The position numbers and the translations under genes were made by a program. The notes beneath the pieces were generated by a model. That model saw only the letters and a program-made list of their open reading frames with translations, was not told the DNA's origin and searched no databases. Below are positions 5,451 to 35,937 of a DNA stretch of 64,000 nucleotides, in pieces. Origin of the DNA: an uncultured Bacteriovoracaceae bacterium (lineage in GTDB: Bacteria > Bdellovibrionota > UBA2428); the NCBI GenBank assembly GCA_937952285.1, contig CALFZE010000048.1:3320-67319 (forward strand), in the 5' to 3' direction. Within the stretch, counting starts at the first letter, position 1. Each line of letters starts with the position of its first letter.

Positions 5451-5547
5451 GGGCCCCTTTAAACACGCCCCGGATTTCACGTCAAAACACTGGCTGGAGA
5501 GGGCGCCTCCGAAACGAGAACATGGATGTCGGAGGGGTACGATCGCT

Positions 5548-6918: not shown

Positions 6919-6925
6919 TTAGGTC

Positions 6926-11934: not shown

Positions 11935-12386
11935 GTCGTCGCTCGGTTTCGAGCCGTCGCGGTCAGGCCGTTGTCGAGCTGTTGCCGGCCGTCCTGATCT
12001 TTCTCCTCGTGACGACGGCGGCCATGACCTATTTCCGCACGCTCCGCCACGCGACGCTTCGCCAGGAGGTCGTGCGCAACCTTGCCTTCGCGAAGATCGC
12101 GAACTCGGGCACGCTCACGACGCCGACCGAGCAGAGCGGCGGCGAGCTCCCCGTCCAGTACGCGGCGTCTGGGGAGCGGAGCGTGGCCGGCATCCAGGCC
12201 AGCGCGAACGCCTTCGTGTCGAACGAGAACGTTTGCTTTCGCATCGTTCCGCACGAGCCGACGACGGAAGTCTCCCTTTCGGGGGTCTACGGTATGGGGG
12301 ACCTCGTCAAAGTTCCGTTCTCGACCTCGAGCGTGGTGTACCGCGGCGCTTTGGGACAGCGCGTGGCGGCGGCCTGCGGACCTTAG
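11928..12386 (+). CDS. TadE/TadF-like pseudopilin
   Basis: MLSRRSVSSRRGQAVVELLPAVLIFLLVTTAAMTYF. GGAGG RBS 7 nt upstream. 7-nt overlap with the preceding gene. Confidence 0.55.
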   Translation: MLSRRSVSSRRGQAVVELLPAVLIFLLVTTAAMTYFRTLRHATLRQEVVRNLAFAKIANSGTLTTPTEQSGGELPVQYAASGERSVAGIQASANAFVSNENVCFRIVPHEPTTEVSLSGVYGMGDLVKVPFSTSSVVYRGALGQRVAAACGP

Positions 12387-12450
12387 CGCGCAGCCTCAAG
12401 GGTCCCGCCCGGATGGCCGATAGGAATGAGAGGAGCGTAAGGCCGACTTT

Positions 12451-15112: not shown

Positions 15113-15116
15113 CGGC

Positions 15117-17357
15117 ATGAGCCAACAACCTCCGCTTCGAGCCGTTCCGCCCCCCGCCGCCGGATCGCCGTCGCCGACGGCCGCCGCGGCCGCGCCCCAA
15201 GGCCACGTCATCGCGGTCGTGGGCGGGAAGGGCGGCGTCGGCAAGTCCGTCTTCGCGGGCAACTTCGCGCTCGCGATGGCGGCCGACGCCAAGAACGGCC
15301 CCGCGCTCATCGACATGGATCCGCAGGGCTCCGGCGACCTGAGCCTGATCTTGGGCGTGAAGCAGGTCAAAGGCTACGGCGACGACTTGCTGGCGGGCAA
15401 ACTCCGCGACAGCGCCGCGCTCCGCAGCTTCCTGACCCAGGTCCCGGCGGGTCCGGCGGGCGGTCCCGTCCTGAACGTTCTCCAAATGAGCGCGAACCCC
15501 GACAAGCTCCTCTCCGTCGAAGAAGACAAGATGGATCTCGCGCTCAAGCTCGTGCGCCGGACTTACCCGGTGACGATCATCGACTGCGGCAGCCGTCTCG
15601 AGGGGCCCATCCTCAAGGCGATCGATCTCGCGACGATGATCCTCGTCGTGACGAACCCCGAGATCCTCGTCCTCAACCAGACCCGCCGCGTGCTCGATCG
15701 GCTACAGACGCTGCTCGTGCCGCCGGACATGGTGAAGGTCGTCCTGAACAAGATGCCGACGGGCGGCACGCCCTATACGCCGCAGTTCATCGAACAGAAC
15801 CTCAAGCGCCAAGTCGTCGCGGTGATCCCCGAGGACGCGGCTTCCGCGCAGGCGGCGCTCTCCAAGGGCGTGCCCATGGTGGCCTCGGCGCCGGGATCGC
15901 CCGCGACCAAGGCGCTCTACGGCTTGAGCCGGGTCCTGCTCGAGAAGCGGGTGCTCGATACCCTCGCCCAGGTTCAGCGCGCGCCCCGGCCCGTGCCGGC
16001 CGCCGATGCGAAGCCGGCCGCGGCGGGCGGCGCCCCCGAGCCGGGCGGCCAGTCGAAAATGGGCAAGGAGCCGCGCGACCCGCGGAGCATCCTGAAGATC
16101 CGTATCCAGGCCCAGCTCGTCGAGCGCATGGACCTCAAGCGCGAACAACTCGACCGCAACCTCGACGCCGAGAAACGCGCCGAGCTCCGCGCGAAGGCCC
16201 TCAAGATCGTCACCGACATCCTGAACGTCGAGGACCATCCGTGGAAAGCCCGCGAGGAGATGGCCAAGCTCACGAAAGAAATCCTGGACGAAGCGCTCGT
16301 GCTCGGTCCCCTGGAGGACCTGCTCGCCGACGACGACGTCAAGGAAATCATGGTGAACCGCGCCGACCTGATCTTCATCGAAAAAGGCGGGCGCATCCAG
16401 AAGTCGCCCGTCACCTTCTCGAGCAACGTTCAGCTCATGTCGGTCATCGAGCGTATCGTGAACCCCCTCGGCCGTCGCATCGACGAGAAGACGCCCTACG
16501 TCGACGCGCGTCTCGTGGACGGCAGCCGGGTGCACGCAATTATCCCGCCGCTCGCCCTCGACGGCCCCATGCTCACGATCCGGAAGTTCCCCAAGAAACG
16601 CCTGGGACCCGAGGATCTCATCAAGTTCGGAACCTTCACGCCCGAGATGTCGGACTTCCTGCGCGCCTGCATCGAGGCCCGCCTGAACGTCCTGATCAGC
16701 GGCGGTACGGGTTCGGGTAAAACGACGCTCCTCAACGTGCTGTCGAGCTTCATTCCCGCCACCGAGCGCATCCTGACCGTCGAAGATGCGGCCGAGTTGC
16801 AACTCGTGCAGGAACACGTCGGACGCCTCGAAACGCGGCCCGCCAACATCGAAGGCACGGGCGCCGTGACGATTCGCGACCTCGTCCGCCAAACGCTCCG
16901 GATGCGCCCCGACCGCATCGTCATCGGGGAAGTCCGCGCCGGCGAGGCGCTCGACATGCTCCAGGCTATGAACACGGGTCACGACGGCTCGATGGCCACG
17001 GTCCACTCGAACAACCCGCGCGACGCCGTCGCGCGTCTCGAGACCCTCGTCATGATGGCCGGCATGGACTTGCCCGCGAAGGCGATCCGCGAGCAGATCT
17101 CGAACGCCGTCCACCTCATCGTGCAGCAGTCGCGCCTTTCGGACGGTTCGCGCCGGGTCACCCACGTGACCGAGGTCTCCGGCATGCAAGGCGAAGTCGT
17201 CACGATGCAGGACATCTTCGTCTTCCGGCAGGACGGCCTCGACGAGAAGCGCAAGGTGAAGGGCAAACACGTCGCGACGGGCTTCATCCCCAAGTTCATC
17301 GACAAGATCGAGGCGACGGGCATCAAGCTCCCGCGCGGTCTCTTTAAGGCGGCTTGA
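15117..17357 (+). CDS. Fused CpaE(TadZ)-like ParA/MinD ATPase and CpaF(TadA) secretion ATPase
   Basis: N-terminus has the deviant Walker A VIAVVGGKGGVGKS (ParA/MinD fold, CpaE-like), then an Ala/Pro-rich linker. C-terminal about 450 aa is CpaF/TadA-like (LISGGTGSGKTTLLNVLSSF Walker A, TVEDAAELQL, NTGHDGSMATVHSN). One 746-aa ORF with no internal stop. Confidence 0.75.
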   Translation: MSQQPPLRAVPPPAAGSPSPTAAAAAPQGHVIAVVGGKGGVGKSVFAGNFALAMAADAKNGPALIDMDPQGSGDLSLILGVKQVKGYGDDLLAGKLRDSAALRSFLTQVPAGPAGGPVLNVLQMSANPDKLLSVEEDKMDLALKLVRRTYPVTIIDCGSRLEGPILKAIDLATMILVVTNPEILVLNQTRRVLDRLQTLLVPPDMVKVVLNKMPTGGTPYTPQFIEQNLKRQVVAVIPEDAASAQAALSKGVPMVASAPGSPATKALYGLSRVLLEKRVLDTLAQVQRAPRPVPAADAKPAAAGGAPEPGGQSKMGKEPRDPRSILKIRIQAQLVERMDLKREQLDRNLDAEKRAELRAKALKIVTDILNVEDHPWKAREEMAKLTKEILDEALVLGPLEDLLADDDVKEIMVNRADLIFIEKGGRIQKSPVTFSSNVQLMSVIERIVNPLGRRIDEKTPYVDARLVDGSRVHAIIPPLALDGPMLTIRKFPKKRLGPEDLIKFGTFTPEMSDFLRACIEARLNVLISGGTGSGKTTLLNVLSSFIPATERILTVEDAAELQLVQEHVGRLETRPANIEGTGAVTIRDLVRQTLRMRPDRIVIGEVRAGEALDMLQAMNTGHDGSMATVHSNNPRDAVARLETLVMMAGMDLPAKAIREQISNAVHLIVQQSRLSDGSRRVTHVTEVSGMQGEVVTMQDIFVFRQDGLDEKRKVKGKHVATGFIPKFIDKIEATGIKLPRGLFKAA

Positions 17358-17365
17358 GGTCGGCG

Positions 17366-18454
17366 ATGGACGGCGTGTTGGGCGTTACCCTCGGAGCCGG
17401 ATTCCTGGGTTTCCTGGGCGTCTACATGACCTTCGACTATTGGTACGACCTTTTCTGGGTCCGCGGCATGAAGCAGATCCACGAGGCCACCGTCGCGCTT
17501 AGCGAGGACCTCTTCATCGAGGGCGACGCCGACGCCGTTTGGGCCAAGCAGATCCGCCTCTCCTCGGGCTTCGCGCTCGTGAACTTCGTCGGGGTCCTCG
17601 TGTCGAAGGATCTCTTCCTCATGGGACCGCTCCTCGTCGTGGGCATGCTCCTCTTCCAATTCATGAACTCGAAGGGAGTCGAGGACTTCATCGCGGCGAA
17701 TCCGGGTTCCGCCGTCGAGCAGCAGGTTCGGGGCCTCAAGCTCCGCGCCGCCCACATGTTCGGCAACGTTATCCTGAGCATTCTCCTTCTCATGCTTCCG
17801 ACCCTCGCGCGTCTGCCGCCGATCGTGCTCTCGATCGTGACGTCGATCATGCTCTTTTACTTCGCGTGGCGCCTGCCCTTCCTTTGGTACAGCTTCATGA
17901 TCCGGCCCGCGCGGATCAAGAAATTCTCGACCCAGATGGTCGACGCGCTCACGCTCATGTCGAATGGCATGAAGTCGGGCCTGAACGTTCCGCAGACCCT
18001 CCAGATCGTCGTGGACGAGATGCCGAACCCGATCAGCCAAGAGTTCCGTCTCATCCTGACCGAGAACCGCATCGGTTTGACTTTCGAAAAGGCCTTCGAG
18101 AACCTCGGCCGCCGCATCCCTTCCGAGGACGTGAGTATGTTCGTGACGAGCGTCAACATCCTGCGCGAAACGGGCGGCAACATCTCGGAGACTTTCGACA
18201 CGATCGCCCAGACGATCCGCGAACGGATGAAGCTGCAGAGCAAGATCGGCGCGATGGTCGCGCAGGGCATGATGTCGGCCATTATCGTGGGCGCGCTGCC
18301 CTGGGGCTTGGGCGTGATGCTCTACCTGATCGATCCCGTGCGTATGACGCCGCTCTTCACGACGCCGCTCGGCTGGGTGATCCTGCTCGCGATCCTCATC
18401 CTCGAGGCCATCGGCTTCGTCGTGATTCTGAAGATCGTGAAAATCCGCGTTTAG
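17366..18454 (+). CDS. Tad platform inner-membrane protein (TadB/TadC, T2SS-F family)
   Basis: Polytopic membrane protein with a single T2SSF-like cytoplasmic domain (QMVDALTLMSNGMKSGLNVPQTLQIVVDEMPNPISQEFRLI). Follows the ATPase gene. Only one such gene is present before the strand switch. Confidence 0.65.
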   Translation: MDGVLGVTLGAGFLGFLGVYMTFDYWYDLFWVRGMKQIHEATVALSEDLFIEGDADAVWAKQIRLSSGFALVNFVGVLVSKDLFLMGPLLVVGMLLFQFMNSKGVEDFIAANPGSAVEQQVRGLKLRAAHMFGNVILSILLLMLPTLARLPPIVLSIVTSIMLFYFAWRLPFLWYSFMIRPARIKKFSTQMVDALTLMSNGMKSGLNVPQTLQIVVDEMPNPISQEFRLILTENRIGLTFEKAFENLGRRIPSEDVSMFVTSVNILRETGGNISETFDTIAQTIRERMKLQSKIGAMVAQGMMSAIIVGALPWGLGVMLYLIDPVRMTPLFTTPLGWVILLAILILEAIGFVVILKIVKIRV

Positions 18455-19740: not shown

Positions 19741-19899
19741 ACCTCGGTGAACTTAGCAGGGGGCGGCCCAAAGATCAGGGAAAGCTCTGGATAGTGCGAT
19801 GTGTCGACGGGCGCTCGCCGGCTCGGCCTAAATTTTGGCGAAGGGCCGGCCGATACATCCGATAAGATACCCGTGGGGAATCATTCGGAGGTTTTCGCT

Positions 19900-21507
19900 A
19901 TGCGTTTTTCCTTGAAGGGACTCGGACGAGTCATGGGTTGTGCGGCCACGCTTTGGGCGGGTGCCAGCTTCGGCGGCGTCAATGTGAACAACGGGAACTT
20001 CTACATCGCCTACACGGACTTCCTCGTGCAGACGCCCGGGCTCAATATCGACATCACGCGCACCTACAACAGCCGCTCGAACTACGTGCGCGGCTTCTTC
20101 GGGGTGGGCTGGTCGAGCGAGATCGAAAGCTACCTTAGCTTCGAGAAAGACGTCGTTTCGCTCTCGGAAGGCGGCGGCGGCAACATCGTCCGCTTCGAAC
20201 CCGTCAAGGGCAAGCCCGGCACTTGGGCGAACGGGGTCTTCGGCAACCAGACGCTGACCAAGGAAAAGACCGGGGGCTACGTCCTCGAGACGGCCACGGC
20301 CAAGGTCATGAGCTTCTCCGACAAGGGCCGGCTGCTGCGCATCGCGGACCGCAACAAGAACGTGATCGAGCTCGTCTACAAGGGCGATCGCATCGACATG
20401 ATCAAGGATAACCTCAACAACCAGATCAAAGTGACCTGGAAGGAGAACGTCGGCCGCCATCCGCGGATCGAAACCCTCCAGATGGGACCGAAGAAGGCTC
20501 GTTACGAGTACTCGAACGTGGGGAACCTCACGAAGGCGGCGGGTGCGGACGGCATCCAGTACGTCTACGCCTACGACGACGAGCACAACATGACCAAGAT
20601 CTCCTACGCGAACGGCTCGTTCAAGGAGATGGGCTACAACAAGGGCCGCGATTGGGTCACGAGCTTCCGCGACCAGGACGGCACGCGCACTTCCTACGAC
20701 TACTTCTCGGACACGCTCGACCCCGAGAACAAGTTCGGCACGACGGTGACGCGCGTCCCCGCCGGTTCGACGAACAAGGAAATCGCCCGCTTCTGGTACG
20801 AGTTCCGCAAGCGCGCCGACGGCAGTCGTTACAACTACAAGGCGGTCACCGAGATGCGCGACGTCGTGACGGAAACGCTCTTCACGGAATGCTGCGGCAC
20901 CCCGCTCGTCATCACCCAGTGGAAGTCCGTCGCGCCGAAGGCCGGCGAGACGACCCTCGCCTGGACGACGCCCAAGGCCGACAAGCGCTCGACCAAGTTC
21001 GAGTACTTCGAGGACGGCCTGCTCCGTCGCAAGACGGCGGCGGACGGCACGATCACGGCCCTGACCTACGATACGAAGCACAAGAAAGTCGCGAGCGTGG
21101 ATCGTGGCGGTCGCAAGGTCGAGTACAACTACGATCCGCGCGGTAACCTCGCGTGGGCCTTCGACGTGAACGACAAGCGTCGCCTCGACCTGACCTACGA
21201 CGTGAAGGGTCGCATCACGGTCGTCCAAGAAAAGCGTCCGACGATGGCCGGGCCGACCAAGATCTTCTTCCGCTACGACGCGATGGGGCGCCCCGTCGAG
21301 ATCAAGGAAACGCCCACGAACGCGAAGGAATCGATCATTCGCTTCGCGTACGGCTCCGAGGGCGAAGTCGTGGGCGTGCTCAACGCCCAGGGCCGCGCGG
21401 TCGCTTCGCAAGTCGAAGTCCAGAGCGCCCAACGCGTGGCCGCGACCTTCCAAAATCTTCTGCAGATCGTTCAACCGACGGGCGTGACGCTCACGCCGGA
21501 GGGCTAA
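19900..21507 (+). CDS. YD-repeat (RHS-family) secreted protein
   Basis: Start at internal ATG with GGAGG 8 nt upstream. Signal peptide. N-terminal GNFYIAYTDFLVQTPGLNIDITRTYNSRS block is typical of RHS N-regions. Multiple YD-type repeats (YDPRGNL, LTYDVKGRI, YDAMGRPVE). No recognisable C-terminal toxin domain. Confidence 0.6.
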   Translation: MRFSLKGLGRVMGCAATLWAGASFGGVNVNNGNFYIAYTDFLVQTPGLNIDITRTYNSRSNYVRGFFGVGWSSEIESYLSFEKDVVSLSEGGGGNIVRFEPVKGKPGTWANGVFGNQTLTKEKTGGYVLETATAKVMSFSDKGRLLRIADRNKNVIELVYKGDRIDMIKDNLNNQIKVTWKENVGRHPRIETLQMGPKKARYEYSNVGNLTKAAGADGIQYVYAYDDEHNMTKISYANGSFKEMGYNKGRDWVTSFRDQDGTRTSYDYFSDTLDPENKFGTTVTRVPAGSTNKEIARFWYEFRKRADGSRYNYKAVTEMRDVVTETLFTECCGTPLVITQWKSVAPKAGETTLAWTTPKADKRSTKFEYFEDGLLRRKTAADGTITALTYDTKHKKVASVDRGGRKVEYNYDPRGNLAWAFDVNDKRRLDLTYDVKGRITVVQEKRPTMAGPTKIFFRYDAMGRPVEIKETPTNAKESIIRFAYGSEGEVVGVLNAQGRAVASQVEVQSAQRVAATFQNLLQIVQPTGVTLTPEG

Positions 21508-23967: not shown

Positions 23968-24456
23968 TTGGCCACTCAACAAAAAGATCCGTCGGGCTTT
24001 CCGGAGGATGGGGAGCCCCGCTTCGTCAATCGTTTGTCGGGCCCTCAGGCCGGAGGCGCAAAGTTCCGAAAGCGGGGTATGGACCTTGGAGGCGTCAATC
24101 GTATCAAGCCGCGGATTCCGGCCGCGGCGGCGACCGGCGAGCTGCGGACGAAAACCGCGAGCTCCGGCGAGCGCGACGCCCATGGCCACGGCGGATACCA
24201 GAAGCAGGAACGGCCCAAGCAGCTGAGTCCCGAGCAGGAAACCGAAGGCGTGGCGGCGCTGAACGCGCTGCCTTCCTTCGTGAACGCGGGGCTCGTCGCT
24301 TCGCTCGTGAAGGAAGAGGGCAAGGCCCCGCACGTCGTCGTGAAAGATCGCAACGGGCAGACCGTGCGCTACCTTCCTTACGAGCAGATCGTGGAACTCT
24401 ACTTCGACCGCAAGAGCGACCGTCAGACCGGTCGCTTGATCAATCGCGCCGCGTAG
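23968..24456 (+). CDS. Hypothetical protein
   Basis: GC3-biased ORF, especially the 3' two-thirds. Start may be the internal ATG at 24079. No recognisable domain. Confidence 0.35.
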   Translation: MATQQKDPSGFPEDGEPRFVNRLSGPQAGGAKFRKRGMDLGGVNRIKPRIPAAAATGELRTKTASSGERDAHGHGGYQKQERPKQLSPEQETEGVAALNALPSFVNAGLVASLVKEEGKAPHVVVKDRNGQTVRYLPYEQIVELYFDRKSDRQTGRLINRAA

Positions 24457-24491: not shown

Positions 24492-25253
24492 TTACTTGAA
24501 CAGCGAAAAGACGTAGGTCAACACGAAGTCCAGGACGATGATCCAGATGGAGTTTGCCACGACGGCGTCCGTCGTCGTCATGCCGACGCCCTCGGAACCG
24601 AAGCGGCAGCGAAATCCGTAGGTCGAGCTGATGATGGGAATGCTGCCGCCGAAGAGCGCCGCCTTGACCGCGCAGAGCAGGAAGTCCGACGGGGTCGTGA
24701 AGGCGAAAAGGCTTTGGAAGAATTCGCCCGTCGAGAAATGCAGCTTGAGCACGGCCGAGAGCCAGCCCCCCATGACGGCCAGGTAGAGCGCGACGACCGA
24801 AAGGATGACCGTCGCGACGGTCGAAGCGATGAAACGGGGCGCGACGAAAAGGTCCACGGGATTCAGCCCGAGCAGACGGTAGGCGTCGAGTTGCTCGGTC
24901 GTCTTCATCGCGCCGAGCTCGGCGGCGATGCTCGCGCCCATCTTCGAGGTCAGCAGCAGCGCCGTGACCGCGGGAGCGAGCTCGCGCACGAGCAGGATCA
25001 TGGCGAAGCCCGGGATGAGCGAGTCGTTCGCGAGGATGAGCTTCATGTGGAAGCTGTACTCGAGGATAATGATGATGCCCGTGAACGTGACGCAGAGGCT
25101 GACGATCCCGAGGCATCCCCACGCGAACTCGTAGAGCTGCTTGACGACTTCGGTCCGCGCGAAGCGGCCCCGCGCGACCGAGCGCAAGGTCTGGCCCGCC
25201 ACCGAGAGGATATTCGAGATCAAGAGGCTCTTCTGGCTTCCCTCGAGGCTCAT
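24492..25253 (-). CDS. MlaE/YrbE-family ABC transporter permease
   Basis: About 253 aa, 5-6 TM permease with the characteristic MlaE layout (GIIIILEYSFHMKLI ... EQLDAYRLLGLNPVDLFVAPRFIA). Confidence 0.7.
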   Translation of the reverse strand: MSLEGSQKSLLISNILSVAGQTLRSVARGRFARTEVVKQLYEFAWGCLGIVSLCVTFTGIIIILEYSFHMKLILANDSLIPGFAMILLVRELAPAVTALLLTSKMGASIAAELGAMKTTEQLDAYRLLGLNPVDLFVAPRFIASTVATVILSVVALYLAVMGGWLSAVLKLHFSTGEFFQSLFAFTTPSDFLLCAVKAALFGGSIPIISSTYGFRCRFGSEGVGMTTTDAVVANSIWIIVLDFVLTYVFSLFK

Positions 25254-25254
25254 C

Positions 25255-26016
25255 TCATTTCCCCAGCGCCGTGAAGATCCCGTTGAGGAACCAGCTGATC
25301 GAGAAGTCGGCCAGCACGATCGCGACCATGCTCTGCACGGCGGTCGTGCGCACGGCGCGGCCCACGCCTTGGGTGCCGCCTTCGGTCCAGTAGCCGTTCG
25401 CGCAGCAGAGGTGGCCCATGAGGACGCCGAAGACGAGCGCCTTCACGCAGGCGAGCGCGACGGTCTCGGCCGCGGCGAAGCGGGGAATCATGCTGAGGTA
25501 CTGCTGGGGGTTCACGCCCCCCACGAAGTAGGAGGCGATCATGCCGCCCGTCACCGAGACGACGAGTCCGAACGCGAGCAGGAGGACGGAGCTCAGCACG
25601 ACGGCCCAAAAGCGCGGCACGACGAGAAAGGCGACGGGGTCCACGCCGAGGCAGCGGATGGCCTGGATCTGGTCGGTCACTTTCATCGTGCCGAGCTCGG
25701 CCGAGGTGAAGGCGCCGACTTTGCCGGCCAGCATGAAGGCGATGAGGATCGGGCCGACCTCGCGCAGCGTGCCCGAGGTATTGAGTCCGCCGAGCGTGGC
25801 TTCGGCGCCGAAGTCCTTCAGCTGCAGGTGAAACTGGACGGCCATGATCGCGCCGGTGAAGACGCCGGCCGTGAGCGTCGTCGGCAGGGAACGCCAACCG
25901 ATCGAGGCGAGCTGCGAAGTGAACTCCCGGCTCTCGAAGCGGGAGAAAAGGCTCGTGCGGAGCAAGCCGAGGAAGAACTCGACGTGTTGGCCGATGGCCG
26001 AAAGAAGAGCCGTCAT
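25255..26016 (-). CDS. MlaE/YrbE-family ABC transporter permease (second paralogue)
   Basis: Start placed at internal ATG (MTALLSAIGQ...), which overlaps the stop of the upstream ATPase (ATGA). Same family signature (DQIQAIRCLGVDPVAFLVVPRFWA). The longer ORF-track version is Arg/Pro-rich antisense-like sequence. Confidence 0.7.
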   Translation of the reverse strand: MTALLSAIGQHVEFFLGLLRTSLFSRFESREFTSQLASIGWRSLPTTLTAGVFTGAIMAVQFHLQLKDFGAEATLGGLNTSGTLREVGPILIAFMLAGKVGAFTSAELGTMKVTDQIQAIRCLGVDPVAFLVVPRFWAVVLSSVLLLAFGLVVSVTGGMIASYFVGGVNPQQYLSMIPRFAAAETVALACVKALVFGVLMGHLCCANGYWTEGGTQGVGRAVRTTAVQSMVAIVLADFSISWFLNGIFTALGK

Positions 26017-26744
26017 CGTCGCACCTCGCGAAGAAAATCTTGGGTGAGCGTCGTCGCGCTCGTTCGGATCGAGTCCGGCGTGCCTTCGTCGACGACCCGG
26101 CCGGCGTCGAGCACGACGATACGATCGGCCGTCTTGAGCGCGTTCTCCATGTCGTGCGAAACGACGATGGCCGTCTTGCCGAGTTTGCGCGAGACGTCGC
26201 GGATGAGTTGGTGCACCTGGCGCGAGGTCGCGGGATCGAGGCCGGTCGTCGGCTCGTCGTAGAGGACGTAGGCCGGGTCGACGAGCAGCGTGCGGGCGAG
26301 GGCGAGTCGCTTCTGTTCCCCGTAGCTGAGCTGCGGCGGGTAGCGCTCGGCCATGCGGTCGGCCAAGGCCTCGAGCCCCACTTCGGGCAGCATCCGGCGC
26401 GCGGCCTCGATCTGCTCGCGGAGCGGCTTCGTGCGGATGCCGAAGGTGACGTTCTCGAAGACCGTGCGCGAATCGAGGAGCGCGGGCAGTTGAAAGACGA
26501 GCCCGCACTTGCGCCGCACGGGCCCGAACCCCGCTTCGTCGAGTTGGGTGATGTCTTGCCCGTCGAGGACGATGCGTCCGCGGTCGCAGCGCAGGAGGCC
26601 GACGAGGTGCTTGAGCATGACGCTCTTGCCCGTGCCGGAACGGCCGAGCGCGAAGAGGATCTCGCCGCGCTCGACCCGAAGGTTGAGCCCGTTCAGGACC
26701 GTTTTCGGCCCGAAGCGCTTGTGGACGTCCTCGAAAAGAATCAC
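26013..26744 (-). CDS. ABC transporter ATP-binding protein, MlaF-like (consensus NBD)
   Basis: Walker A GRSGTGKS, Q-loop, LSYGEQKRLALAR signature, Walker B LYDEPTTGLD, H-loop VVSHD. Confidence 0.75.
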   Translation of the reverse strand: MILFEDVHKRFGPKTVLNGLNLRVERGEILFALGRSGTGKSVMLKHLVGLLRCDRGRIVLDGQDITQLDEAGFGPVRRKCGLVFQLPALLDSRTVFENVTFGIRTKPLREQIEAARRMLPEVGLEALADRMAERYPPQLSYGEQKRLALARTLLVDPAYVLYDEPTTGLDPATSRQVHQLIRDVSRKLGKTAIVVSHDMENALKTADRIVVLDAGRVVDEGTPDSIRTSATTLTQDFLREVRR

Positions 26745-27463
26745 AGGAAGATCCTTCCGAGCTCTTCGTGCCGCGGCGAGCCCGGCGAGTGAAGCTCGCG
26801 GTCGGCGAGAAAGTGGATGTTCGGTCCCCAGTCGCGCGCGCGATCCGGGTCGTTCGTGACGATGACGATGAGTCCGTCGAGGCCGCGCAGGAGCTCCTTC
26901 ACGAGCTCGGCCATCTGCCGCGAAGTGATCGGATCAAGTCCGGCCGTGGGATCGTCCAGGAAGATGAGCGTCGGCTTGAGCATGAGGCAGCGGGCGATCG
27001 ACAGGCGCTTCTGCATGCCCCCGGAAAGCTCGTGGGGGAAAAGCGGGGCGGCGGCCTCGAGCCCGACTTTCGCGAGCCAGGATTGTGCGAGTTCGCGCCG
27101 CTCGCTTTCGGGAGTTGAAGGATGGCGGCAGCGGTGGGGAAAGGTCAGGTTCTCGATGACGCGAAGCGATCCGAAGAGCGCGTTGTTCTGGAAGGCGAAA
27201 CCGATCTCGGCCAGCAGGCCGGCGTCTTGCGCGTAGCCCTCCCGCGCCCACAGCGGACGTCCGTTCAGGAGCAGCCGGCCGCGCCGCGGCTTCCACACGC
27301 CGCCCAAGGTCTTGAGCAAAGAAGATTTGCCGCCGCCCGACGAGCCCATGACGACGTGCACGCCCGGTCCGCGCCACGCGAGGCTCACGTTTTCGAAAAG
27401 CCACGGCGTCAGGAGTTCCTGCCCTTGGCTTTGCGCGATGGCTTCGGTTTCGATCGAAATCAC
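26741..27463 (-). CDS. ABC transporter ATP-binding protein, MlaF-like paralogue with degenerate H-loop
   Basis: Walker A GSSGGGKSS, LSGGMQKRLSIAR, Walker B IFLDDPTAGLD. The switch His is replaced (IVIVTNDPD). 4-nt overlap with the downstream ATPase. Confidence 0.7.
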   Translation of the reverse strand: MISIETEAIAQSQGQELLTPWLFENVSLAWRGPGVHVVMGSSGGGKSSLLKTLGGVWKPRRGRLLLNGRPLWAREGYAQDAGLLAEIGFAFQNNALFGSLRVIENLTFPHRCRHPSTPESERRELAQSWLAKVGLEAAAPLFPHELSGGMQKRLSIARCLMLKPTLIFLDDPTAGLDPITSRQMAELVKELLRGLDGLIVIVTNDPDRARDWGPNIHFLADRELHSPGSPRHEELGRIFL

Positions 27464-27540
27464 TTACCCCCAGTATGAGCGAGGGAATTGACGCAAAACA
27501 GATCTTGGCCGATCACGTCTTTGACGCTAGGGTTTTAGCC

Positions 27541-28794: not shown

Positions 28795-29937
28795 ATGAAG
28801 GCGTTCCGCCAAGTCGGTTTGCTCGTATTCTTGGCGTTGGCCGCCTTGGGATTCGTGTACTTCGGCCCGGTCGAATACACGGGCGTCGTGACCCGTACGG
28901 ACTTCTATCGCTATTATCTCGGCCCGCACCTGGATCGTTTCATGTCGTTGACCGGGCAGGGCAGTCTCACGATCGCCTACCTTTTTGATTCGGAAGGCTC
29001 GGTGGATTTCACGCCGGGCAACGATACGGTGACTTTGCCCGCTCGCCCCGGCCAGCGCTTTTCGCGCCGCACGACGGTGTCGACCTCCTCGCGTTCGCGC
29101 GCCGTCATCGCGCTCGTGGACGACTCCAAGGTCACGCTCGAAGCGAACTCGACGATCCTGCTCGATATTCCCACCGACGACAGCACCGAAGCGCTAACCC
29201 TTAAGGTCTTGGGCGGTAGCGTGACGGCCGAGCGTTCGGCCACTTCGACGACGCAGATTACGATCGTGTCTCCCAAGGGCGTCGCGAAAGAACTGACGCA
29301 AGCGAAACTGGCCGTCGTGACGACGAAAGCCGCGCCCGGCGCGGCGGATGTCGCGAAGGATTCGCAGGAATTCTTCGGCACGCCCGAAGAGCCCCTCGAG
29401 GCGATTCAATCCAAGCTCGCGACCGCGCGTCGCGAAGAACTCCAGAACGCCGACACGGGCTTCGAAGCCGTCGCCGATGCCGAAGAGCAAGCGCGTGCGG
29501 CCGAAGCGGCACGGGCGCCGGCGTCCGAAGCCGAAGCGGTTCCCGTCGAGCCCGAACGGCCGACCTCCTTCGCGCCCCGTCGCAAGGCGGCGTCGATCCG
29601 TTGGGCACCGCCTCCCGAAGGCAACGATCTCTCGCAGGCGTTCTTTGCCGAGCGTGCCGGTCGCAAAGACGATTCCAAGCGTCTCATGGCGCGCGCCCTC
29701 ACGAAGCCGGGTTACCAAGGCGAGGGCTTCAGCGAGTCGACGCGCGTCGCGCTCGATGGTCTCCTCCGCGGCTACGTCGAGAACGGCGACGCTCGCCTGG
29801 CGCAAGAAACCCTGCGGAACGCCAAAGAGACCTACGGTCACGACGCGGCCGCGCAGGATTGGCTGCGCGAATGGGATCGGCGACTGGGATCATCGTCCTC
29901 CTCGCGCGTTCCCGCCAGCGTCAAACCCGGCCGCTAG
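28795..29937 (+). CDS. Hypothetical membrane-anchored protein (possible FecR-like beta-domain, Ala/Glu-rich linker, helical C-terminus)
   Basis: AAAGAGG RBS 6 nt before the ATG. N-terminal TM MKAFRQVGLLVFLALAALGFVYF. Middle segment resembles FecR-type beta strands (VTLEANSTILLDI...LTLKVLGGSVTAE). Confidence 0.4.
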   Translation: MKAFRQVGLLVFLALAALGFVYFGPVEYTGVVTRTDFYRYYLGPHLDRFMSLTGQGSLTIAYLFDSEGSVDFTPGNDTVTLPARPGQRFSRRTTVSTSSRSRAVIALVDDSKVTLEANSTILLDIPTDDSTEALTLKVLGGSVTAERSATSTTQITIVSPKGVAKELTQAKLAVVTTKAAPGAADVAKDSQEFFGTPEEPLEAIQSKLATARREELQNADTGFEAVADAEEQARAAEAARAPASEAEAVPVEPERPTSFAPRRKAASIRWAPPPEGNDLSQAFFAERAGRKDDSKRLMARALTKPGYQGEGFSESTRVALDGLLRGYVENGDARLAQETLRNAKETYGHDAAAQDWLREWDRRLGSSSSSRVPASVKPGR

Positions 29938-30000: not shown

Positions 30001-31122
30001 ATGGGGAATTTTCGGCGTAGCATCGGAGCGTTCGCGATGGCTTTCGCGGCTCCGGTCGCGGCCCAAACGCACTTGCAAAAGTTTTCGATCGATAAGCTGA
30101 GTTTCCAGTATCGATCGGTCGAAACGCCCAAGCTTCCTCGCTGTCTGCATTGGAATCCGCTCGATTCCGACGCCGCTCCGACCACGCTCCAGTACGACCA
30201 AGAGGGGCGTCCTTTCCTGAAGGTCCCGATCACCGCTTTGCAGTCCTCGCCGAACTGCGCGATCCGCGTGGTCGGCGAAGGCTTGGACGAGATCCCTGCG
30301 GGGGAAGGTCCGGGTGAGCGTCGGTTTATCGCGACCGTGCGTCCGCCGGTTTCCGTGCTGAAGGTCGAGGGTCCCGGTTTCCGTGACGACTTGATCTTCG
30401 AGGCGCCGCTGAGGTCTTTCACGAGCTCGAACTTCTTCGAGTTCTTCGGCCGTTCGAAGGTCTACTTCGAATCGCGTTACGCTTCGTTCAATACGAACAA
30501 CCCCGATCGCCCGCTCGATTCGCCGGTCGTGCTGTTGCCGGTCTTCGGCGGAAACATCGCGCTTCCCGTGCCCGCCGTGAGCTTTCTTTTCGTCGGCTTC
30601 TCGATGTTCCAGAACCTCGGGAGCCTGATTCCGAACGCGGACGTCGGACTTCAATACAGCGAGTTCGCGTTCGATCTGAGGGCCATCTACCGCGGCTCCG
30701 AGAGCTGGGGCGCTCCCACGATCGGGCTTATGGGCGAGTTCCGCGGCCGTAACGTCTACCAGATCGGCGCCCAACGCTCCTTCGTCATCGCGGCCGCCGC
30801 GTTGCCGTACGCCGGCTTCGAGGCAAGCTGGTTCCCCTTCGGCGCCTTCCTGGATTGGAATCATTGGCTTTCGCGTCTCGGGGTCGAGGTCGCCGGGCAC
30901 TTGGCCCTTCAGCGTCAGCTCGCGGGCCGTCCCTTCCGATCGGATTTCTACGAAGGCCTGCTGCAATACCGTCTTTCGAGCAAGTGGGCTTTGGGCGTGG
31001 GTTACTCGCTCATCCGCCAGTCCGCGGATTTCTCGGACGCCGGCTTCGGGTCCATCGAGGAAACCGCGAAGAACTACTTTCTTCGCTTGAGCCTGCTTCC
31101 GCGGGCGTCGGAGTCGCGATGA
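30001..31122 (+). CDS. Secreted / probable outer-membrane protein (hypothetical)
   Basis: Signal peptide ...AFAAPVAAQT. Alternating aromatic-rich strands. No enzyme motif. Confidence 0.4.
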   Translation: MGNFRRSIGAFAMAFAAPVAAQTHLQKFSIDKLSFQYRSVETPKLPRCLHWNPLDSDAAPTTLQYDQEGRPFLKVPITALQSSPNCAIRVVGEGLDEIPAGEGPGERRFIATVRPPVSVLKVEGPGFRDDLIFEAPLRSFTSSNFFEFFGRSKVYFESRYASFNTNNPDRPLDSPVVLLPVFGGNIALPVPAVSFLFVGFSMFQNLGSLIPNADVGLQYSEFAFDLRAIYRGSESWGAPTIGLMGEFRGRNVYQIGAQRSFVIAAAALPYAGFEASWFPFGAFLDWNHWLSRLGVEVAGHLALQRQLAGRPFRSDFYEGLLQYRLSSKWALGVGYSLIRQSADFSDAGFGSIEETAKNYFLRLSLLPRASESR

Positions 31123-32318
31123 ATCGCTTTGCTTTGGGGTTGGCGGTCGCGTTCTTCTCGAGTTCCGCGCTTGCGCAGATCAAGCCGCGCCAGCGCGTCG
31201 CGCCCCGTCCGCGCGCCGCGCTTCCGGCCCCGCCGGAAAATCAAAACGCCGCCGCGCGGAGCGAAGGGGCCGGAACCGAGCTCGTTTTCCCGAGCGGAAA
31301 AGTCTGGCGTTCGGCCCGTTGGTACGTCGTGGGTCGTTGGCACGCGGCCGACGAAATCGTGTGGCTCGGCGGCGGTCGGACGCGGATTCGGTACGGGAAC
31401 CCGAAATGCGGCAACGTCGAGGGGCTCGGCTTCGTCGCCCGCGCCGAGCGTGCGGGCGATCTCGAGGTCTTGCGTTCCGGCGTTTGGACCCTGATCGAAG
31501 TCAGCCCGAACGTTCAGACCGAGGCGTTCACGTTCTCGGTCCCGGGGGCGGACGCCGATTGCCGTCGCGAGGCCAAGGTGACCTACGCCTGGTCCGGCGC
31601 CCGGGAAGGCGTGAAGCCTTTGCTCTTCCTTCAGCCCGCCAACAATCGCTACTTCGGCGCCACTTTTCACGTTCGTCCCGACATCCCGGCCGAGAAGGCG
31701 GATATCCAGTTGGATCTTCTCCTCGGCGGAGCCAAGGGTAAGTTTCCGAACGCCGACACCGCGAACGGGGCGAGCTCGAGTTTTTACCTGGCCCCCATGG
31801 CGATCGCGCGCGGCGAGTGGCTGTTGCCGTTCTTTCGCGACGTCGGTCTGAACCTGGGCCTCGAGCAAACCGTCGCGAACTTCGGGGGCGCTCCGCTTCA
31901 GAACGTCTTCTTCTCGGATTGGAACGTCGGCGCCTTCTACCAACGCCTCTTGCCCGTCGCGAACGGCTTCCTGCTCCGCGGCGGTTTCAAGTTTCACAAT
32001 CACGTCGCCGACGACAACAAAGAGCTTCGCTCGCTCGCCGACTCCGGCGTCGAGTCCAAGGGCTTCCTGCTCGGCGCTTCGGCGACTCTCTACTTCGCGG
32101 ACGCTTGGCTCGTGGGCGCGGACTTCGATTACGGTTTGCCGAGCAGCATGGCGGGCCGTGGAAAATCGTCCATGATGGATTTCACCGGGCGCTTCGGTTT
32201 GAGGGTAACCGGTTTTCTCTACCTGCTGGGCGAGCTCGGTTACCGTACTTACGCGAACGAAGCGATGAACACGGATTCGCTGCTGCGTTTCTCGGGCGGC
32301 CTTCGCTTCGATCTCTAA
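31119..32318 (+). CDS. Secreted / probable outer-membrane beta-barrel protein (hypothetical)
   Basis: ATG overlaps the previous stop (ATGA). Signal peptide MNRFALGLAVAFFSSSALAQ. Gly/aromatic-rich amphipathic strands (GADFDYGLPSS..., LRVTGFLYLLGELGYRTYANE). Confidence 0.4.
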   Translation: MNRFALGLAVAFFSSSALAQIKPRQRVAPRPRAALPAPPENQNAAARSEGAGTELVFPSGKVWRSARWYVVGRWHAADEIVWLGGGRTRIRYGNPKCGNVEGLGFVARAERAGDLEVLRSGVWTLIEVSPNVQTEAFTFSVPGADADCRREAKVTYAWSGAREGVKPLLFLQPANNRYFGATFHVRPDIPAEKADIQLDLLLGGAKGKFPNADTANGASSSFYLAPMAIARGEWLLPFFRDVGLNLGLEQTVANFGGAPLQNVFFSDWNVGAFYQRLLPVANGFLLRGGFKFHNHVADDNKELRSLADSGVESKGFLLGASATLYFADAWLVGADFDYGLPSSMAGRGKSSMMDFTGRFGLRVTGFLYLLGELGYRTYANEAMNTDSLLRFSGGLRFDL

Positions 32319-34726: not shown

Positions 34727-34793
34727 GTCGTAAGGCGCCTTTTTGGCGCGCCTCGGCTACCCTCGCGGATCCCCCCGTTCTACACTGGAGAGC

Positions 34794-35498
34794 ATGGAAA
34801 CGACTCTCGTGAATCCGAACGCGTTCGAAATGGCTCTCGGCACCGGTCCGGTCGTGAAGGGGGTGTTGATCATCCTCATCGCCTGCTCCGTGCTTTCGTG
34901 GACGGTCATCTTCGCCAAAATCTTCACCTTCCGCCAAGCCCGTCGTGAGTCGGACAGCTTCTTGGATCTGTTCTGGAACGCGAAATCGTTGGAATCGATC
35001 TTCGCGGAGTCGAAGGGATTTCAGTCGAGTCCCGTCTCGAACGTTTTCCGCTCGGGTTACCTCGAGTTCCAGAAGCTCGCCGCCAAGGGACAAGAGGCCG
35101 GCGGCGACAAAGCTTCGAACATGATCGGATCGGGACTCGAGAACGTGCAGCGCGCGCTCCGCAAAGCCGCGACGACGGAAATGCTTCGGCTCGAGAAAGC
35201 GGTACCCTACCTCGCGACGATCGCTTCGGTCGCGCCGTTCATCGGTCTCTTCGGTACCGTGTGGGGCATCATGGATAGTTTCCAAGGCCTCTCGACGGGC
35301 GGACCCGCGACCTTGCAGCGCGTGGCGCCCGGCATCTCGGAAGCGCTCATCGCGACGGCCGTCGGTTTGGCGGCGGCCATCCCGGCCGTCGTCGCCTACA
35401 ACCAATACGTGAACCGGATGAAGGGGTTCCGCGCCGAAGTCGACAGCTTCGCCTCGGACTTCACGAACATCCTCAAGCGTAACTACCTCAACGGGTGA
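34794..35498 (+). CDS. tolQ: TolQ (MotA/TolQ/ExbB proton-channel family)
   Basis: Three-TM topology. Conserved C-terminal region PYLATIASVAPFIGLFGTVWGIMDSF...ALIATAVGLAAAIPAVVAYN. Confidence 0.75.
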   Translation: METTLVNPNAFEMALGTGPVVKGVLIILIACSVLSWTVIFAKIFTFRQARRESDSFLDLFWNAKSLESIFAESKGFQSSPVSNVFRSGYLEFQKLAAKGQEAGGDKASNMIGSGLENVQRALRKAATTEMLRLEKAVPYLATIASVAPFIGLFGTVWGIMDSFQGLSTGGPATLQRVAPGISEALIATAVGLAAAIPAVVAYNQYVNRMKGFRAEVDSFASDFTNILKRNYLNG

Positions 35499-35501
35499 AC
35501 G

Positions 35502-35936
35502 ATGGCTTTCAACGTTGGATCCGACGACGGCGGCGGTGATTCCTACTCGGGCCAGCCGATGGCCGAGATCAACATCATTCCGCTCGTCGACGTCATGCTC
35601 GTGTTGCTCATCATCATGATGGTGACGGCGCCGTTCCTCGAGCAGGGCGTGAACGTGAACCTTCCCGTCGCCCAGGGGCAAAGCCTCCGGAAGGAAGTCG
35701 TCGAGGATCCCGTCATCCTCTTCATCGCGAAGGACCGTAACCTACGCTTGGGCTCGATGCCGGTGACGCGCCAAGAGCTCGCGCTTCGCCTGTCCGAAGT
35801 CTTCGGCAAGCGTTCGTCGAAGGAGCTTTTCGTGCGGGCCGATCGCGACGTGCCTTACGGCGAAGTCGCCGAGATCATGGCGCGCATTCAGGCCGCGGGC
35901 GTCGAGAAAGTCGGGCTCGTGACCCAACCGGAGTAA
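35502..35936 (+). CDS. tolR: TolR (ExbD/TolR family)
   Basis: EINIIPLVDVMLVLLIIMMVTAPF single TM plus the ExbD/TolR periplasmic domain. 3 nt after tolQ. Confidence 0.75.
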   Translation: MAFNVGSDDGGGDSYSGQPMAEINIIPLVDVMLVLLIIMMVTAPFLEQGVNVNLPVAQGQSLRKEVVEDPVILFIAKDRNLRLGSMPVTRQELALRLSEVFGKRSSKELFVRADRDVPYGEVAEIMARIQAAGVEKVGLVTQPE

Positions 35937-35937
35937 G

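What the first reader, a model, noticed from the sequence alone, without database searches (positions are those of the whole stretch)
24492..27463. MlaFE-like ABC transporter with duplicated, asymmetric subunits and no MCE (MlaD) partner
Four translationally coupled genes on the minus strand (ATGA overlaps) encode two ATPases and two MlaE-family permeases. ATPase 1 has a consensus H-loop (VVSHD). ATPase 2 has the switch histidine replaced (IVIVTNDPD), yet retains the Walker A/B and signature motifs. That is the pattern of heterodimeric ABC transporters with one degenerate, non-hydrolytic site. No MCE-domain (MlaD) or MlaC/MlaB gene follows the permeases; the next gene is on the opposite strand. 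Two YrbE-like permeases are characteristic of actinobacterial Mce systems, but those use a single ATPase and adjacent Mce genes. This arrangement looks like a distinct heterodimeric lipid-transport ABC module.
Basis: partly seen in the sequence, partly recalled or inferred. Interest (0 to 1): 0.5.

Follow-up and report, generated by a model that had tools for sequence, protein, structure and literature searches.

The report
Asymmetric two-ATPase MlaFE-type lipid transporter
Four linked genes encode a Mla-type lipid ABC transporter built from two different ATPases (one with a crippled ATP site) and two different membrane subunits; this design is undescribed for the family, and this lineage has lost the adjacent MCE partner gene that its relatives keep.

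Summary
On the minus strand, 24492-27463, four abutting genes encode two ABC ATPases (A2, A1) and two MlaE-family permeases (E1, E2).

A2 lacks the switch histidine (VTND). A1 has intact catalytic residues but a non-consensus signature (LSYGEQ). These defects are complementary: an A1/A2 heterodimer would have one working and one degenerate ATP site. The pattern holds in all 46 related loci examined.

The "no MCE partner" claim holds only in cis. No MCE gene lies in about 80 kb around the operon, nor in 13 other loci of the same Bdellovibrionota clade. In the sister lineages, 25 of 26 informative loci have a MlaD/MCE gene directly after E2. Trees show E1 and E2 are old paralogues and that the MCE-less clade is nested among MCE-linked lineages. 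The module is therefore a derived form of a wider, undescribed A2-A1-E1-E2-MlaD family, not an MCE-free invention.

Whether an MCE protein is encoded elsewhere in the genome could not be tested.

Verdict: a new variant of a known kind, of moderate interest.

The parts
26741..27463 (-). A2: first gene, degenerate ABC ATPase (240 aa, GTG start)
   Evidence: PF00005 1.2e-25. An identical 240-aa product was called in a JGI assembly (P0001). Its nearest solved relatives are MlaF and MceG.
27323..27346 (-). A2 Walker A, GSSGGGKS (intact)
   Evidence: G40, S42, G43, G45, K46 and S47 are invariant in 35 homologues.
27011..27028 (-). A2 signature, LSGGMQ (consensus for MlaF-type ATPases). In a head-to-tail NBD dimer it would complete the A1 catalytic site.
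   Evidence: SGGMQKRL is invariant.
26948..26962 (-). A2 Walker B, FLDDP. Asp171 replaces the catalytic Glu (E. coli MlaF FDEP).
   Evidence: Asp occurs in 14/14 clade loci and 22/32 sister-lineage loci.
26849..26860 (-). A2 H-loop, VTND. Asn204 replaces the switch His.
   Evidence: Aligned with VVSHD of E. coli MlaF. His is absent in 46/46 A2 proteins.
26013..26744 (-). A1: second gene, catalytically competent ABC ATPase (243 aa). Its GTG start overlaps the A2 stop (GTGA).
   Evidence: PF00005 1.7e-30; junction read.
26313..26330 (-). A1 signature, LSYGEQ (Tyr in place of the first Gly). It would face the A2 Walker A/B and complete the degenerate site.
   Evidence: S-Y-G occurs in 44/46 A1 proteins.
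26250..26264 (-). A1 Walker B, LYDEP (catalytic Glu present)
26151..26162 (-). A1 H-loop, VSHD (His present)
25255..26016 (-). E1: MlaE-family permease (253 aa). Its ATG overlaps the A1 stop (ATGA).
   Evidence: PF02405 9.1e-62. TIGR00056 scores 194 bits, below its 212-bit cut-off. PDB hits are MlaE 3e-29 and YrbE1A 2e-20. The E1 orthogroup has 99% bootstrap support.
25981..26004 (-). E1 interfacial-helix motif, LSAIGQHV. Its Gly aligns with E. coli MlaE Gly21, the docking glycine for the MlaD transmembrane helix.
   Evidence: Alignment. Gly is present in 32/32 MCE-linked loci and 9/14 clade loci. The role of Gly21 is taken from PMC7790496.
24492..25253 (-). E2: second MlaE-family permease (253 aa, 29% identical to E1). 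It starts 1 nt after the E1 stop.
   Evidence: PF02405 2.6e-57. The E2 orthogroup has 95% bootstrap support. Identity.
27464..27540 (.). About 77-bp divergent intergenic region between A2 and citrate synthase; the presumed promoter region (inferred).
   Evidence: Gene callers give citrate synthase 382 aa, which puts its start at 27541. Homologous loci have 72-112 bp gaps here. No sigma-70 consensus match was found.

Best explanation
The four genes encode one heterotetrameric ABC transporter of the Mla/MCE type: permeases E1+E2 (MlaE fold) driven by an A1+A2 ATPase heterodimer with two unequal ATP sites.

The consensus site is built from A1's Walker A, Walker B-Glu and H-loop His, plus A2's LSGGMQ signature. 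It hydrolyses ATP. The other site is built from A2's Walker A, Asp171 and Asn204, plus A1's LSYGEQ signature. It binds ATP but hydrolyses it poorly or not at all. Its likely role is to hold the dimer together, the job done in E. coli by the MlaF C-terminal 'handshake', which both ATPases here lack.

The module descends from an A2-A1-E1-E2-MlaD operon that is still intact in related Bdellovibrionales, Oligoflexia and Leptospirales lineages. In this Bdellovibrionota clade the MCE gene has left the operon.

The transporter most likely still extracts or inserts phospholipid-like lipids at the inner membrane. I favour a single-pass periplasmic partner encoded elsewhere, most probably an MCE protein (about even odds).

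Shown: the gene set, the motifs, their conservation, the phylogeny, and MCE present in cis in relatives but absent here. Inferred: the heterotetramer, non-hydrolysis at one site, a lipid substrate, and a partner encoded in trans.
For: Domains.

Motifs were aligned to E. coli MlaF and mapped to window coordinates.

Complementary asymmetry across 46 non-redundant loci:
- A2 has no H-loop His in 46/46.
- A2 has Glu->Asp in 36/46.
- A2 has the consensus signature in 46/46.
- A1 has DEP and SHD in 45-46/46.
- A1 has the S-Y-G signature in 44/46.
- A locus with a different gene order (L048, A2-E1-E2-A1-MCE) shows the same complementarity.

Constraint: D170, D171, T203, N204 and D205 are invariant in 35 A2 homologues that are only 46-67% identical overall.

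Operon structure: 4-nt overlaps at two junctions, and the same gene order in every locus.

Origin: MCE lies directly after E2 in 25/26 informative sister loci and in 0/14 clade loci. The home-made MCE profile was validated on a Pfam-annotated MlaD that was not in its training set. E1 and E2 orthogroups have 99% and 95% support, and the clade (100%) is nested among MCE-linked lineages.

Family: the only solved relatives of E1 are MlaE and YrbE1A/B.

Partner in trans: the window's E1 keeps the glycine that docks the MlaD transmembrane helix in E. coli. In L007 the MCE gene is displaced 7 kb by a TetR+RND insertion, so relocation does happen.

Handshake: the MlaF-type C-terminal motif is absent from all 14 clade A2 proteins but present in 25/32 sister A2 proteins.
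Against: - No biochemistry is available. Asp and Asn could retain some catalysis.
- Heterodimer and heterotetramer stoichiometry is inferred from motif complementarity and gene linkage only.
- No MCE gene is present in about 80 kb around the operon or within +/-8-10 kb in 13 other clade loci.
- The docking glycine of E1 is lost in 5/14 clade members, against 0/32 MCE-linked relatives.
- A2 has lost its C-terminal extension.
- These last three points fit real loss of the MCE partner in at least part of the clade.
- The loci are phylogenetically related, so the counts overstate independence.
Confidence: 0.7

Rival explanations
1. The clade's transporter no longer uses any MCE protein. It works alone as a lipid flippase or extractor, or with a different single-pass periplasmic partner. 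The FecR-domain membrane protein at 28795-29937 and the two outer-membrane-like proteins after it are the obvious candidates.
For: - 0/14 clade loci hold an MCE ORF, against 25/26 sister loci.
- The E1 docking glycine is relaxed in the clade (9/14 against 32/32).
- The A2 C-terminal extension is lost.
- The FecR-like protein, with an N-terminal TM helix carrying a conserved Gly, neighbours the operon in 10/14 clade loci and in 0 of the 12 sister loci listed.
- In the P0024 locus it lies downstream on the operon strand.
Against: - The FecR-like gene is missing near the operon in L003, L087 and L096.
- It usually sits on the other strand, behind citrate synthase.
- The whole region (TrmFO, TolQRAB) is syntenic, so neighbourhood may only reflect shared descent.
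- Every characterised MlaE-family permease works with MCE proteins (established knowledge; PDB hits).
- The window's own E1 keeps the docking glycine.
- No usable structure was obtained for the FecR-like protein.
Confidence: 0.2
2. Both ATP sites are catalytically active. Asp171 and Asn204 are functional lineage-specific variants rather than signs of a dead site.
For: Both residues are strictly conserved rather than drifting. Asp can act as a general base in principle. Ten of 32 sister A2 proteins still carry Glu.
Against: - Glu->Asp or Glu->Gln, and loss of the H-loop His, strongly reduce hydrolysis in studied ABC ATPases (established knowledge).
- The substitutions co-occur with a signature defect on the opposite subunit, a combination typical of degenerate sites.
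- Strict conservation is also the rule in known degenerate sites, which still bind ATP.
Confidence: 0.1
3. The operon encodes two separate homodimeric transporters (for example A1 with E1 and A2 with E2) that merely share a transcript.
For: The gene order A2-A1-E1-E2 does not by itself say who pairs with whom. No interaction data exist.
Against: - An A2 homodimer would have two sites lacking both Glu and His.
- An A1 homodimer would have two sites with a defective LSYG signature.
- The defects are complementary only in a heterodimer.
- All four genes co-occur 1:1:1:1 in every complete locus of the 46.
Confidence: 0.05
4. The operon is a decaying remnant left after loss of the MCE gene.
For: The MCE gene is missing. 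NCBIfam MlaE and MlaF scores are below the curated cut-offs.
Against: - All four reading frames are intact.
- GC3 is 0.82-0.91, like neighbouring genes.
- 48 columns are invariant in A2 across homologues 46-67% identical to it.
- The architecture is kept in loci whose GC content ranges from 44% to 63%.
Confidence: 0.02

Closest known systems
E. coli / A. baumannii / P. aeruginosa MlaFEDB (PDB 6XBD, 7D06, 7CH8)
   Same: It has the MlaE-fold permease, with conserved R-E-x-G-P, T-E/D-Q, P-R-F, Lys205 and Asp250 equivalents. It has a MlaF-type ATPase with the LSGGM signature. These chains are the best PDB hits for both A2 and E1.
   Different: - MlaFEDB has one permease gene and one ATPase gene (homodimers) with two equivalent ATP sites.
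- MlaD is encoded directly after MlaE, together with MlaC and the STAS protein MlaB.
- MlaF has a C-terminal 'handshake' that is required for function.
- Here there are two of each subunit and one degenerate ATP site.
- Here there is no MlaD, MlaC or MlaB gene in the operon, and neither ATPase has the C-terminal extension.
Uncharacterised A2-A1-E1-E2-MlaD operons of Bdellovibrionales, Pseudobdellovibrionaceae, Oligoflexia and Leptospirales MAGs (e.g. L088 from GCA_041252335.1; L008; L009)
   Same: The four subunits are orthologous and in the same gene order. A1/A2 show the same complementary asymmetry.
   Different: - These operons keep a 258-310 aa single-domain MCE gene right after E2.
- In L088 a 210-aa outer-membrane-like gene follows the MCE gene.
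- Their A2 keeps the MlaF-type C-terminal motif.
- The E1 docking glycine is invariant.
- I found no publication on them.
Mycobacterial Mce1/Mce4 (YrbEA + YrbEB + MceA-F + MceG; PDB 8FED)
   Same: It has two different MlaE-family permeases forming a heterodimer. One subunit class is encoded away from the operon (MceG), which is a precedent for partners in trans.
   Different: - There is a single ATPase (MceG homodimer).
- Six adjacent mce genes form a heterohexamer.
- E1 is closer to MlaE (3e-29) than to YrbE1A (2e-20) or YrbE1B (1e-16), so the permease duplication here looks independent.
Heterodimeric ABC exporters with one degenerate site (TM287/288, LmrCD, BmrCD, TAP1/2, CFTR-type asymmetry)
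   Same: The division of labour is the same: catalytic Glu and H-loop His are replaced on one NBD, and the signature is non-consensus on the other (established knowledge of these families; motifs here).
   Different: Those are type IV exporters with fused TMD-NBD half-transporters. Here the NBDs are separate polypeptides on an MlaE-fold membrane domain. It works alike but is not a member.

Membership tests
Mla/MCE-type ABC transporters (MlaFEDB, TGD1-3, Mce, LinKLMN) | Permease of the MlaE family (PF02405) | tested here: met
   E1 scores 9e-62 and E2 3e-57. The only PDB relatives are MlaE and YrbE1A/B.
Mla/MCE-type ABC transporters (MlaFEDB, TGD1-3, Mce, LinKLMN) | MlaF/MceG-type ABC ATPase | tested here: inconclusive
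   The top PDB hits of A2 are MlaF and MceG, and it has the LSGGM signature. The NCBIfam MlaF equivalog scores only 108 bits against a 441-bit cut-off. For A1, other ABC families score higher.
Mla/MCE-type ABC transporters (MlaFEDB, TGD1-3, Mce, LinKLMN) | MCE-domain (PF02470) subunit encoded with the permease | tested here: not met
   There is no hit at E<=10 with a validated MCE profile among all six-frame ORFs >=40 aa of the window and two flanking extensions. No PF02470 annotation appears in the flanks. 0/14 clade loci have an MCE ORF, against 25/26 sister loci.
Mla/MCE-type ABC transporters (MlaFEDB, TGD1-3, Mce, LinKLMN) | MCE protein present anywhere in the genome and bound to the permease | not testable with these tools
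   Only about 80 kb of this genome could be read. The contig-length fingerprint trick on the best 120 MlaD homologues found nothing.
Mla/MCE-type ABC transporters (MlaFEDB, TGD1-3, Mce, LinKLMN) | Accessory MlaB (STAS) / MlaC encoded in the operon (Proteobacterial six-gene type only) | tested here: not met
   The operon has four genes only. Pfam scans of 34 window ORFs, including all neighbours, gave no STAS or MlaC hit. The remaining distant ORFs were not scanned.
ABC transporters with a degenerate nucleotide-binding site | Two different NBD polypeptides | tested here: met
   A1 and A2 are 37% identical and fall in separate groups in the tree (60-69% support).
ABC transporters with a degenerate nucleotide-binding site | Catalytic Glu and H-loop His replaced on one NBD | tested here: met
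   A2 has D171 and N204, both invariant in 35 homologues.
ABC transporters with a degenerate nucleotide-binding site | Non-consensus signature on the partner NBD, consensus signature on the degenerate NBD | tested here: met
   A1 has LSYGEQ and A2 has LSGGMQ. This holds in 44/46 and 46/46 loci.
ABC transporters with a degenerate nucleotide-binding site | ATP bound but not hydrolysed at the degenerate site | not testable with these tools
   This needs biochemistry or structures.
Actinobacterial Mce systems | YrbEA/YrbEB pair followed by six mce genes, with a single MceG ATPase | tested here: not met
   There are no mce genes and two ATPases sit in the operon. E1 and E2 form their own orthogroups together with Bdellovibrionota and Leptospirales sequences. 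No actinobacterial YrbE sequence was included in the tree.

The most novel reading that the evidence does not exclude
In this Bdellovibrionota clade an MlaE-fold ABC motor with a single catalytic ATP site has been uncoupled from MCE proteins altogether. It now serves a different periplasmic partner, with the clade-specific FecR-domain single-pass protein and its two outer-membrane-like neighbours as candidates. That would be the first MCE-independent member of the Mla/MCE transporter class.
Probability: 0.2. Interest if true: 0.75.

Novelty: new variant of a known kind. Interest (0 to 1): 0.55.

Why it matters
Every Mla/MCE transporter with a solved structure in the PDB search (MlaFEDB of three species and Mce1) has two identical ATPases.

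A natural family with one consensus and one degenerate ATP site would show that a single hydrolysis site can drive an MlaE-fold transporter. It offers a built-in asymmetric system for working out how ATP binding and hydrolysis couple to lipid movement, whose direction is still debated for Mla. It also suggests that a permanently ATP-bound site can replace the MlaF 'handshake'.

The MCE-less clade is a natural experiment on whether an MlaE permease can work without a cis-encoded, or any, MCE ring.

None of this is proven here, and it concerns uncultured Bdellovibrionota. Its main value is as a lead for structural and biochemical work.

Tried and rejected
- **MCE hidden in 23968-24456.** Rejected. 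That ORF is a conserved ~125-aa protein (true start about 24079) whose best Pfam match is FlaG, below threshold, in all four homologues tested. The MCE profile gives no hit.
- **Genome-contig scan with the single A2 protein.** It returned only one close relative (L006) and mostly unrelated ABC ATPases. It was still useful, because it supplied canonical MCE operons for building the MCE profile.
- **Looking for a trans-encoded MCE.** I searched homologues of the sister-lineage MlaD and matched 'longest contig' lengths to clade contigs. No match appeared among the best 120. This is inconclusive, because a diverged orthologue would rank lower.
- **Third protein search, with the FecR-like neighbour.** It returned only the query itself. 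It did identify the source as bioreactor-sludge assemblies, and a later lookup named GCA_002343545.1.
- **AlphaFold of the FecR-like protein.** The single-sequence model had mean pLDDT 49, so no fold search was run. A profile search against the PDB found nothing.
- **Promoter and terminator scan of the operon.** No promoter match, and terminator-like sites were no more frequent than in shuffled sequence.
- **Functional link to Tol-Pal.** TolQRAB lies 7 kb away in the window and near the operon in several clade loci. It was not within the held DNA of L086, L087, L091 and five other clade loci, so I treat it as synteny.
- **Literature.** No paper describes two-ATPase, two-permease Mla systems. 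Grasekamp et al. 2023 (PMC10665443) only note 'several duplications' of MlaDE in Gracilicutes.


Full report
**What is there.** On the minus strand of the window four genes abut.
- A2, 26741-27463: 240 aa, GTG start, ABC_tran 1e-25.
- A1, 26013-26744: 243 aa. Its GTG start overlaps the A2 stop as GTGA.
- E1, 25255-26016: 253 aa. Its ATG overlaps the A1 stop as ATGA. Pfam MlaE 9e-62.
- E2, 24492-25253: 253 aa. It starts one base after the E1 stop. MlaE 3e-57.

A1 and A2 are 37% identical, and E1 and E2 are 29% identical. Upstream and divergent lies citrate synthase. Gene callers give it 382 aa, which leaves an intergenic region of about 77 bp.

Downstream and convergent lies a small gene whose true product is about 125 aa. 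It is conserved next to the operon in other genomes, in either orientation. Its best Pfam match in all four homologues tested is FlaG, below threshold. It is not an MCE protein.

**The ATPase motifs.** I aligned both ATPases to E. coli MlaF, fetched from NC_000913.

| Motif | A1 | A2 |
|---|---|---|
| Walker A | intact | intact |
| Walker B + catalytic residue | LYDEP (Glu present) | FLDDP (Asp171 replaces Glu) |
| H-loop | VSHD (His present) | VTND (Asn204 replaces His) |
| Signature | LSYGEQ (non-consensus) | LSGGMQ (MlaF consensus) |

In a head-to-tail NBD dimer each ATP site combines the Walker A, Walker B and H-loop of one subunit with the signature of the other. All three defects therefore fall in the same composite site. 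The other site (A1 catalytic residues plus the A2 signature) is fully consensus.

The pattern makes sense only in an A1/A2 heterodimer. An A2 homodimer would have no catalytic residues. An A1 homodimer would have two defective signatures.

**Conservation.** A protein search with A2 found about 73 close homologues (46-68% identity) from Bdellovibrionota metagenome bins. All carry DDP, and all but one truncated sequence carry TND. In an alignment of 35 of them, D170, D171, T203, N204 and D205 are invariant.

I combined loci from exact-protein look-ups, a genome-collection scan and a metagenome scan. This gave 46 non-redundant loci with the two-ATPase, two-permease arrangement.
- A2 lacks the H-loop His in 46/46.
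- A2 has Asp for the catalytic Glu in 36/46.
- A2 has the consensus signature in 46/46.
- A1 has DEP and SHD in 45-46/46.
- A1 has the S-Y-G signature in 44/46.

A high-GC locus with a different gene order (L048, A2-E1-E2-A1-MCE) shows the same complementarity: FDDP on one ATPase and an APSER 'signature' on the other.

**The MCE question.** I built an MCE-domain profile from E. coli MlaD and the MCE proteins found in fetched loci. It recovered a Pfam-annotated MlaD that was not in its training set at 9e-23.

It gives no hit, even at E<=10, in any six-frame ORF of the window. It also gives none in 8.9 kb and 7.2 kb extensions of the same contig.

The 46 loci split into two groups.
- **The clade.** Fourteen loci including the window form a clade (100% bootstrap in both permease trees). 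None has an MCE ORF in the DNA held, usually 8-10 kb either side.
- **The sister lineages.** The other 32 come from bins named Bdellovibrionales, Pseudobdellovibrionaceae, Oligoflexia and Leptospirales. In 25 of the 26 with enough downstream sequence, an MCE gene follows E2 directly. In the remaining one (L007) it lies 7 kb away behind an inserted TetR+RND cluster.

**Phylogeny.** Neighbour-joining trees show E1 and E2 as separate old orthogroups, with 99% and 95% support. The MCE-less clade is nested among MCE-linked lineages in both trees. The ATPase tree agrees, with weaker support. The ancestral operon was therefore A2-A1-E1-E2-MlaD, and absence of the MCE gene is derived. Because the loci are related, these counts are not independent events. 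The loss probably happened once.

**Is the MCE partner gone, or only moved?** This could not be settled. Only about 80 kb of the genome is readable, and no tool lists the genes of a named assembly.

Evidence for a partner in trans:
- Every characterised MlaE-family permease works with MCE proteins.
- Mycobacteria encode one subunit (MceG) away from the operon.
- L007 shows that displacement happens.
- The window's E1 keeps the L-x-x-I-G motif whose Gly aligns with E. coli MlaE Gly21. That glycine packs against Gly11 of the MlaD transmembrane helix (PMC7790496; alignment).

Evidence for real loss:
- That glycine is invariant in the 32 MCE-linked loci but present in only 9 of 14 clade loci.
- The MlaF-type C-terminal extension motif (F..G...GP) sits on A2 in 25/32 sister loci and is absent from all 14 clade A2 proteins. 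This extension forms the dimer 'handshake' that is essential in E. coli (PMC7367683).
- A FecR-domain single-pass membrane protein (window 28795-29937) neighbours the operon in 10/14 clade loci and in none of the 12 sister loci listed. In one further locus it lies downstream on the operon strand.

The FecR link may be plain synteny. The gene is absent near the operon in three clade loci, and TrmFO and TolQRAB are syntenic too. Its structure could not be modelled usefully.

**Mechanism proposed.** The four proteins form an E1E2 membrane heterodimer of the MlaE fold. The functional residues mapped in E. coli MlaE are conserved in both: the R-E-x-G/A-P motif and the Lys205 and Asp250 equivalents.

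It is powered by an A1A2 heterodimer. ATP stays bound at the A2-centred degenerate site and keeps the NBDs together, replacing the missing handshake. Hydrolysis at the A1-centred site drives each cycle.

The substrate is most likely a membrane lipid, by homology only. The periplasmic acceptor or donor is, in my estimate:
- a trans-encoded MCE protein, about 50%;
- a new partner or none, about 20-30%;
- otherwise unknown.

**Comparison with what is known.** The nearest solved structures are MlaF and MceG for A2, and MlaE and YrbE1A/B for E1. All of those have homodimeric ATPases. Mycobacterial Mce systems share the heterodimeric permease but have one ATPase and six MCE genes.

The ATP-site asymmetry works like that of heterodimeric type IV exporters such as TM287/288 or TAP1/2, on an unrelated membrane fold. 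NCBIfam has no specific model. E1 and E2 fall just below the MlaE-family cut-off, and the ATPases match only generic models.

Eight full-text searches and three papers read found no description of a two-ATPase Mla/MCE system. The phylogenomic survey of Mla only mentions 'several duplications' in Gracilicutes.

**Verdict.**
The degenerate-site heterodimer is well supported. 'No MCE partner' is true in cis but is a derived state of an MCE-type family.
- This is a new variant of a known kind, and interest is moderate.

Noticed in passing
window 24079-24456 (+): A ~125-aa protein convergent with E2. Homologues lie next to the operon in 11/14 clade loci, on either strand. The best Pfam match is FlaG, below threshold (E 0.00045-0.16), in four homologues. 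The 162-aa ORF from 23968 is probably over-extended.
   Followed up: partly
window 28795-29937, 30001-31122, 31119-32318 (+): A trio downstream of citrate synthase. The first is a single-pass FecR-domain protein with a conserved Gly in its TM helix and a confidently helical C-terminal domain. The next two have N-terminal sequences that read like signal peptides and ends that read like outer-membrane barrels (by eye; no Pfam hit). The full trio is found in the window, L001, L006 and L095. The FecR-like gene alone is in 10/14 clade loci and in none of the 12 sister loci listed.
   Followed up: partly
window 27475-27540: The longest citrate synthase ORF (404 aa, ATG at 27475) would start 11 nt from the A2 start. 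Gene callers and homologues indicate 382 aa (start 27541), which gives a ~77-bp divergent intergenic region. Citrate synthase is divergently adjacent to the operon in 12/14 clade loci whose GC content ranges from 44% to 63%. In sister locus L088 the upstream genes are malate dehydrogenase and succinyl-CoA ligase, so adjacency to TCA-cycle genes recurs.
   Followed up: partly
window 36972-37102 (inside the TolB-like gene 36840-38369): A 30-bp tandem repeat (4.4 copies, 99% matches) encodes PQPGATASQP repeats between the start of a TolB homologue and its TolB_N domain. TolQ, TolR and a TolA-like gene lie at 34743-36858.
   Followed up: partly
window 5305-7321 and 11137-18454: Flagellar fliD-fliS, and a Flp/Tad pilus cluster: RcpC/CpaB, a secretin, a 746-aa T2SSE ATPase fused to an N-terminal ParA/MinD-like domain, and T2SSF. 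An RHS-repeat/DUF6531 protein follows at 19801-21507. The same pilus and RHS genes lie near the operon in L003 and L090.
   Followed up: partly
L088 13760-14392: In the MCE-linked sister operon the MlaD gene is followed by a 210-aa protein with no Pfam hit. By eye it has a signal peptide and a C-terminal ...GFNYFF, like a small outer-membrane barrel, so it could be the outer-membrane end of that system. No homologue was found in any other locus held.
   Followed up: partly
L099 7676-10588 and L100 9860-13432: In two sister loci A2 and A1 starts are about 2.9 and 3.6 kb apart, against about 0.7 kb elsewhere. The rest of the operon (A1-E1-E2-MCE) is intact. The inserted sequence was not examined.
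   Followed up: no
L048 3959-7715: A 72.6% GC bin labelled 'Deltaproteobacteria' has the order A2-E1-E2-A1-MCE. A2 has FDDP but keeps the H-loop His. A1 has a very degenerate signature (APSER) and carries the C-terminal F..G...GP motif. The asymmetric design therefore extends beyond Bdellovibrionota, with the features distributed differently.
   Followed up: partly
window 48513-50789 (+): The 758-aa ORF looks over-extended. By eye, only its C-terminal ~465 aa resemble class II fumarate hydratase, and the N-terminal part has an odd Arg/Glu-rich composition. Not checked with any tool.
   Followed up: no
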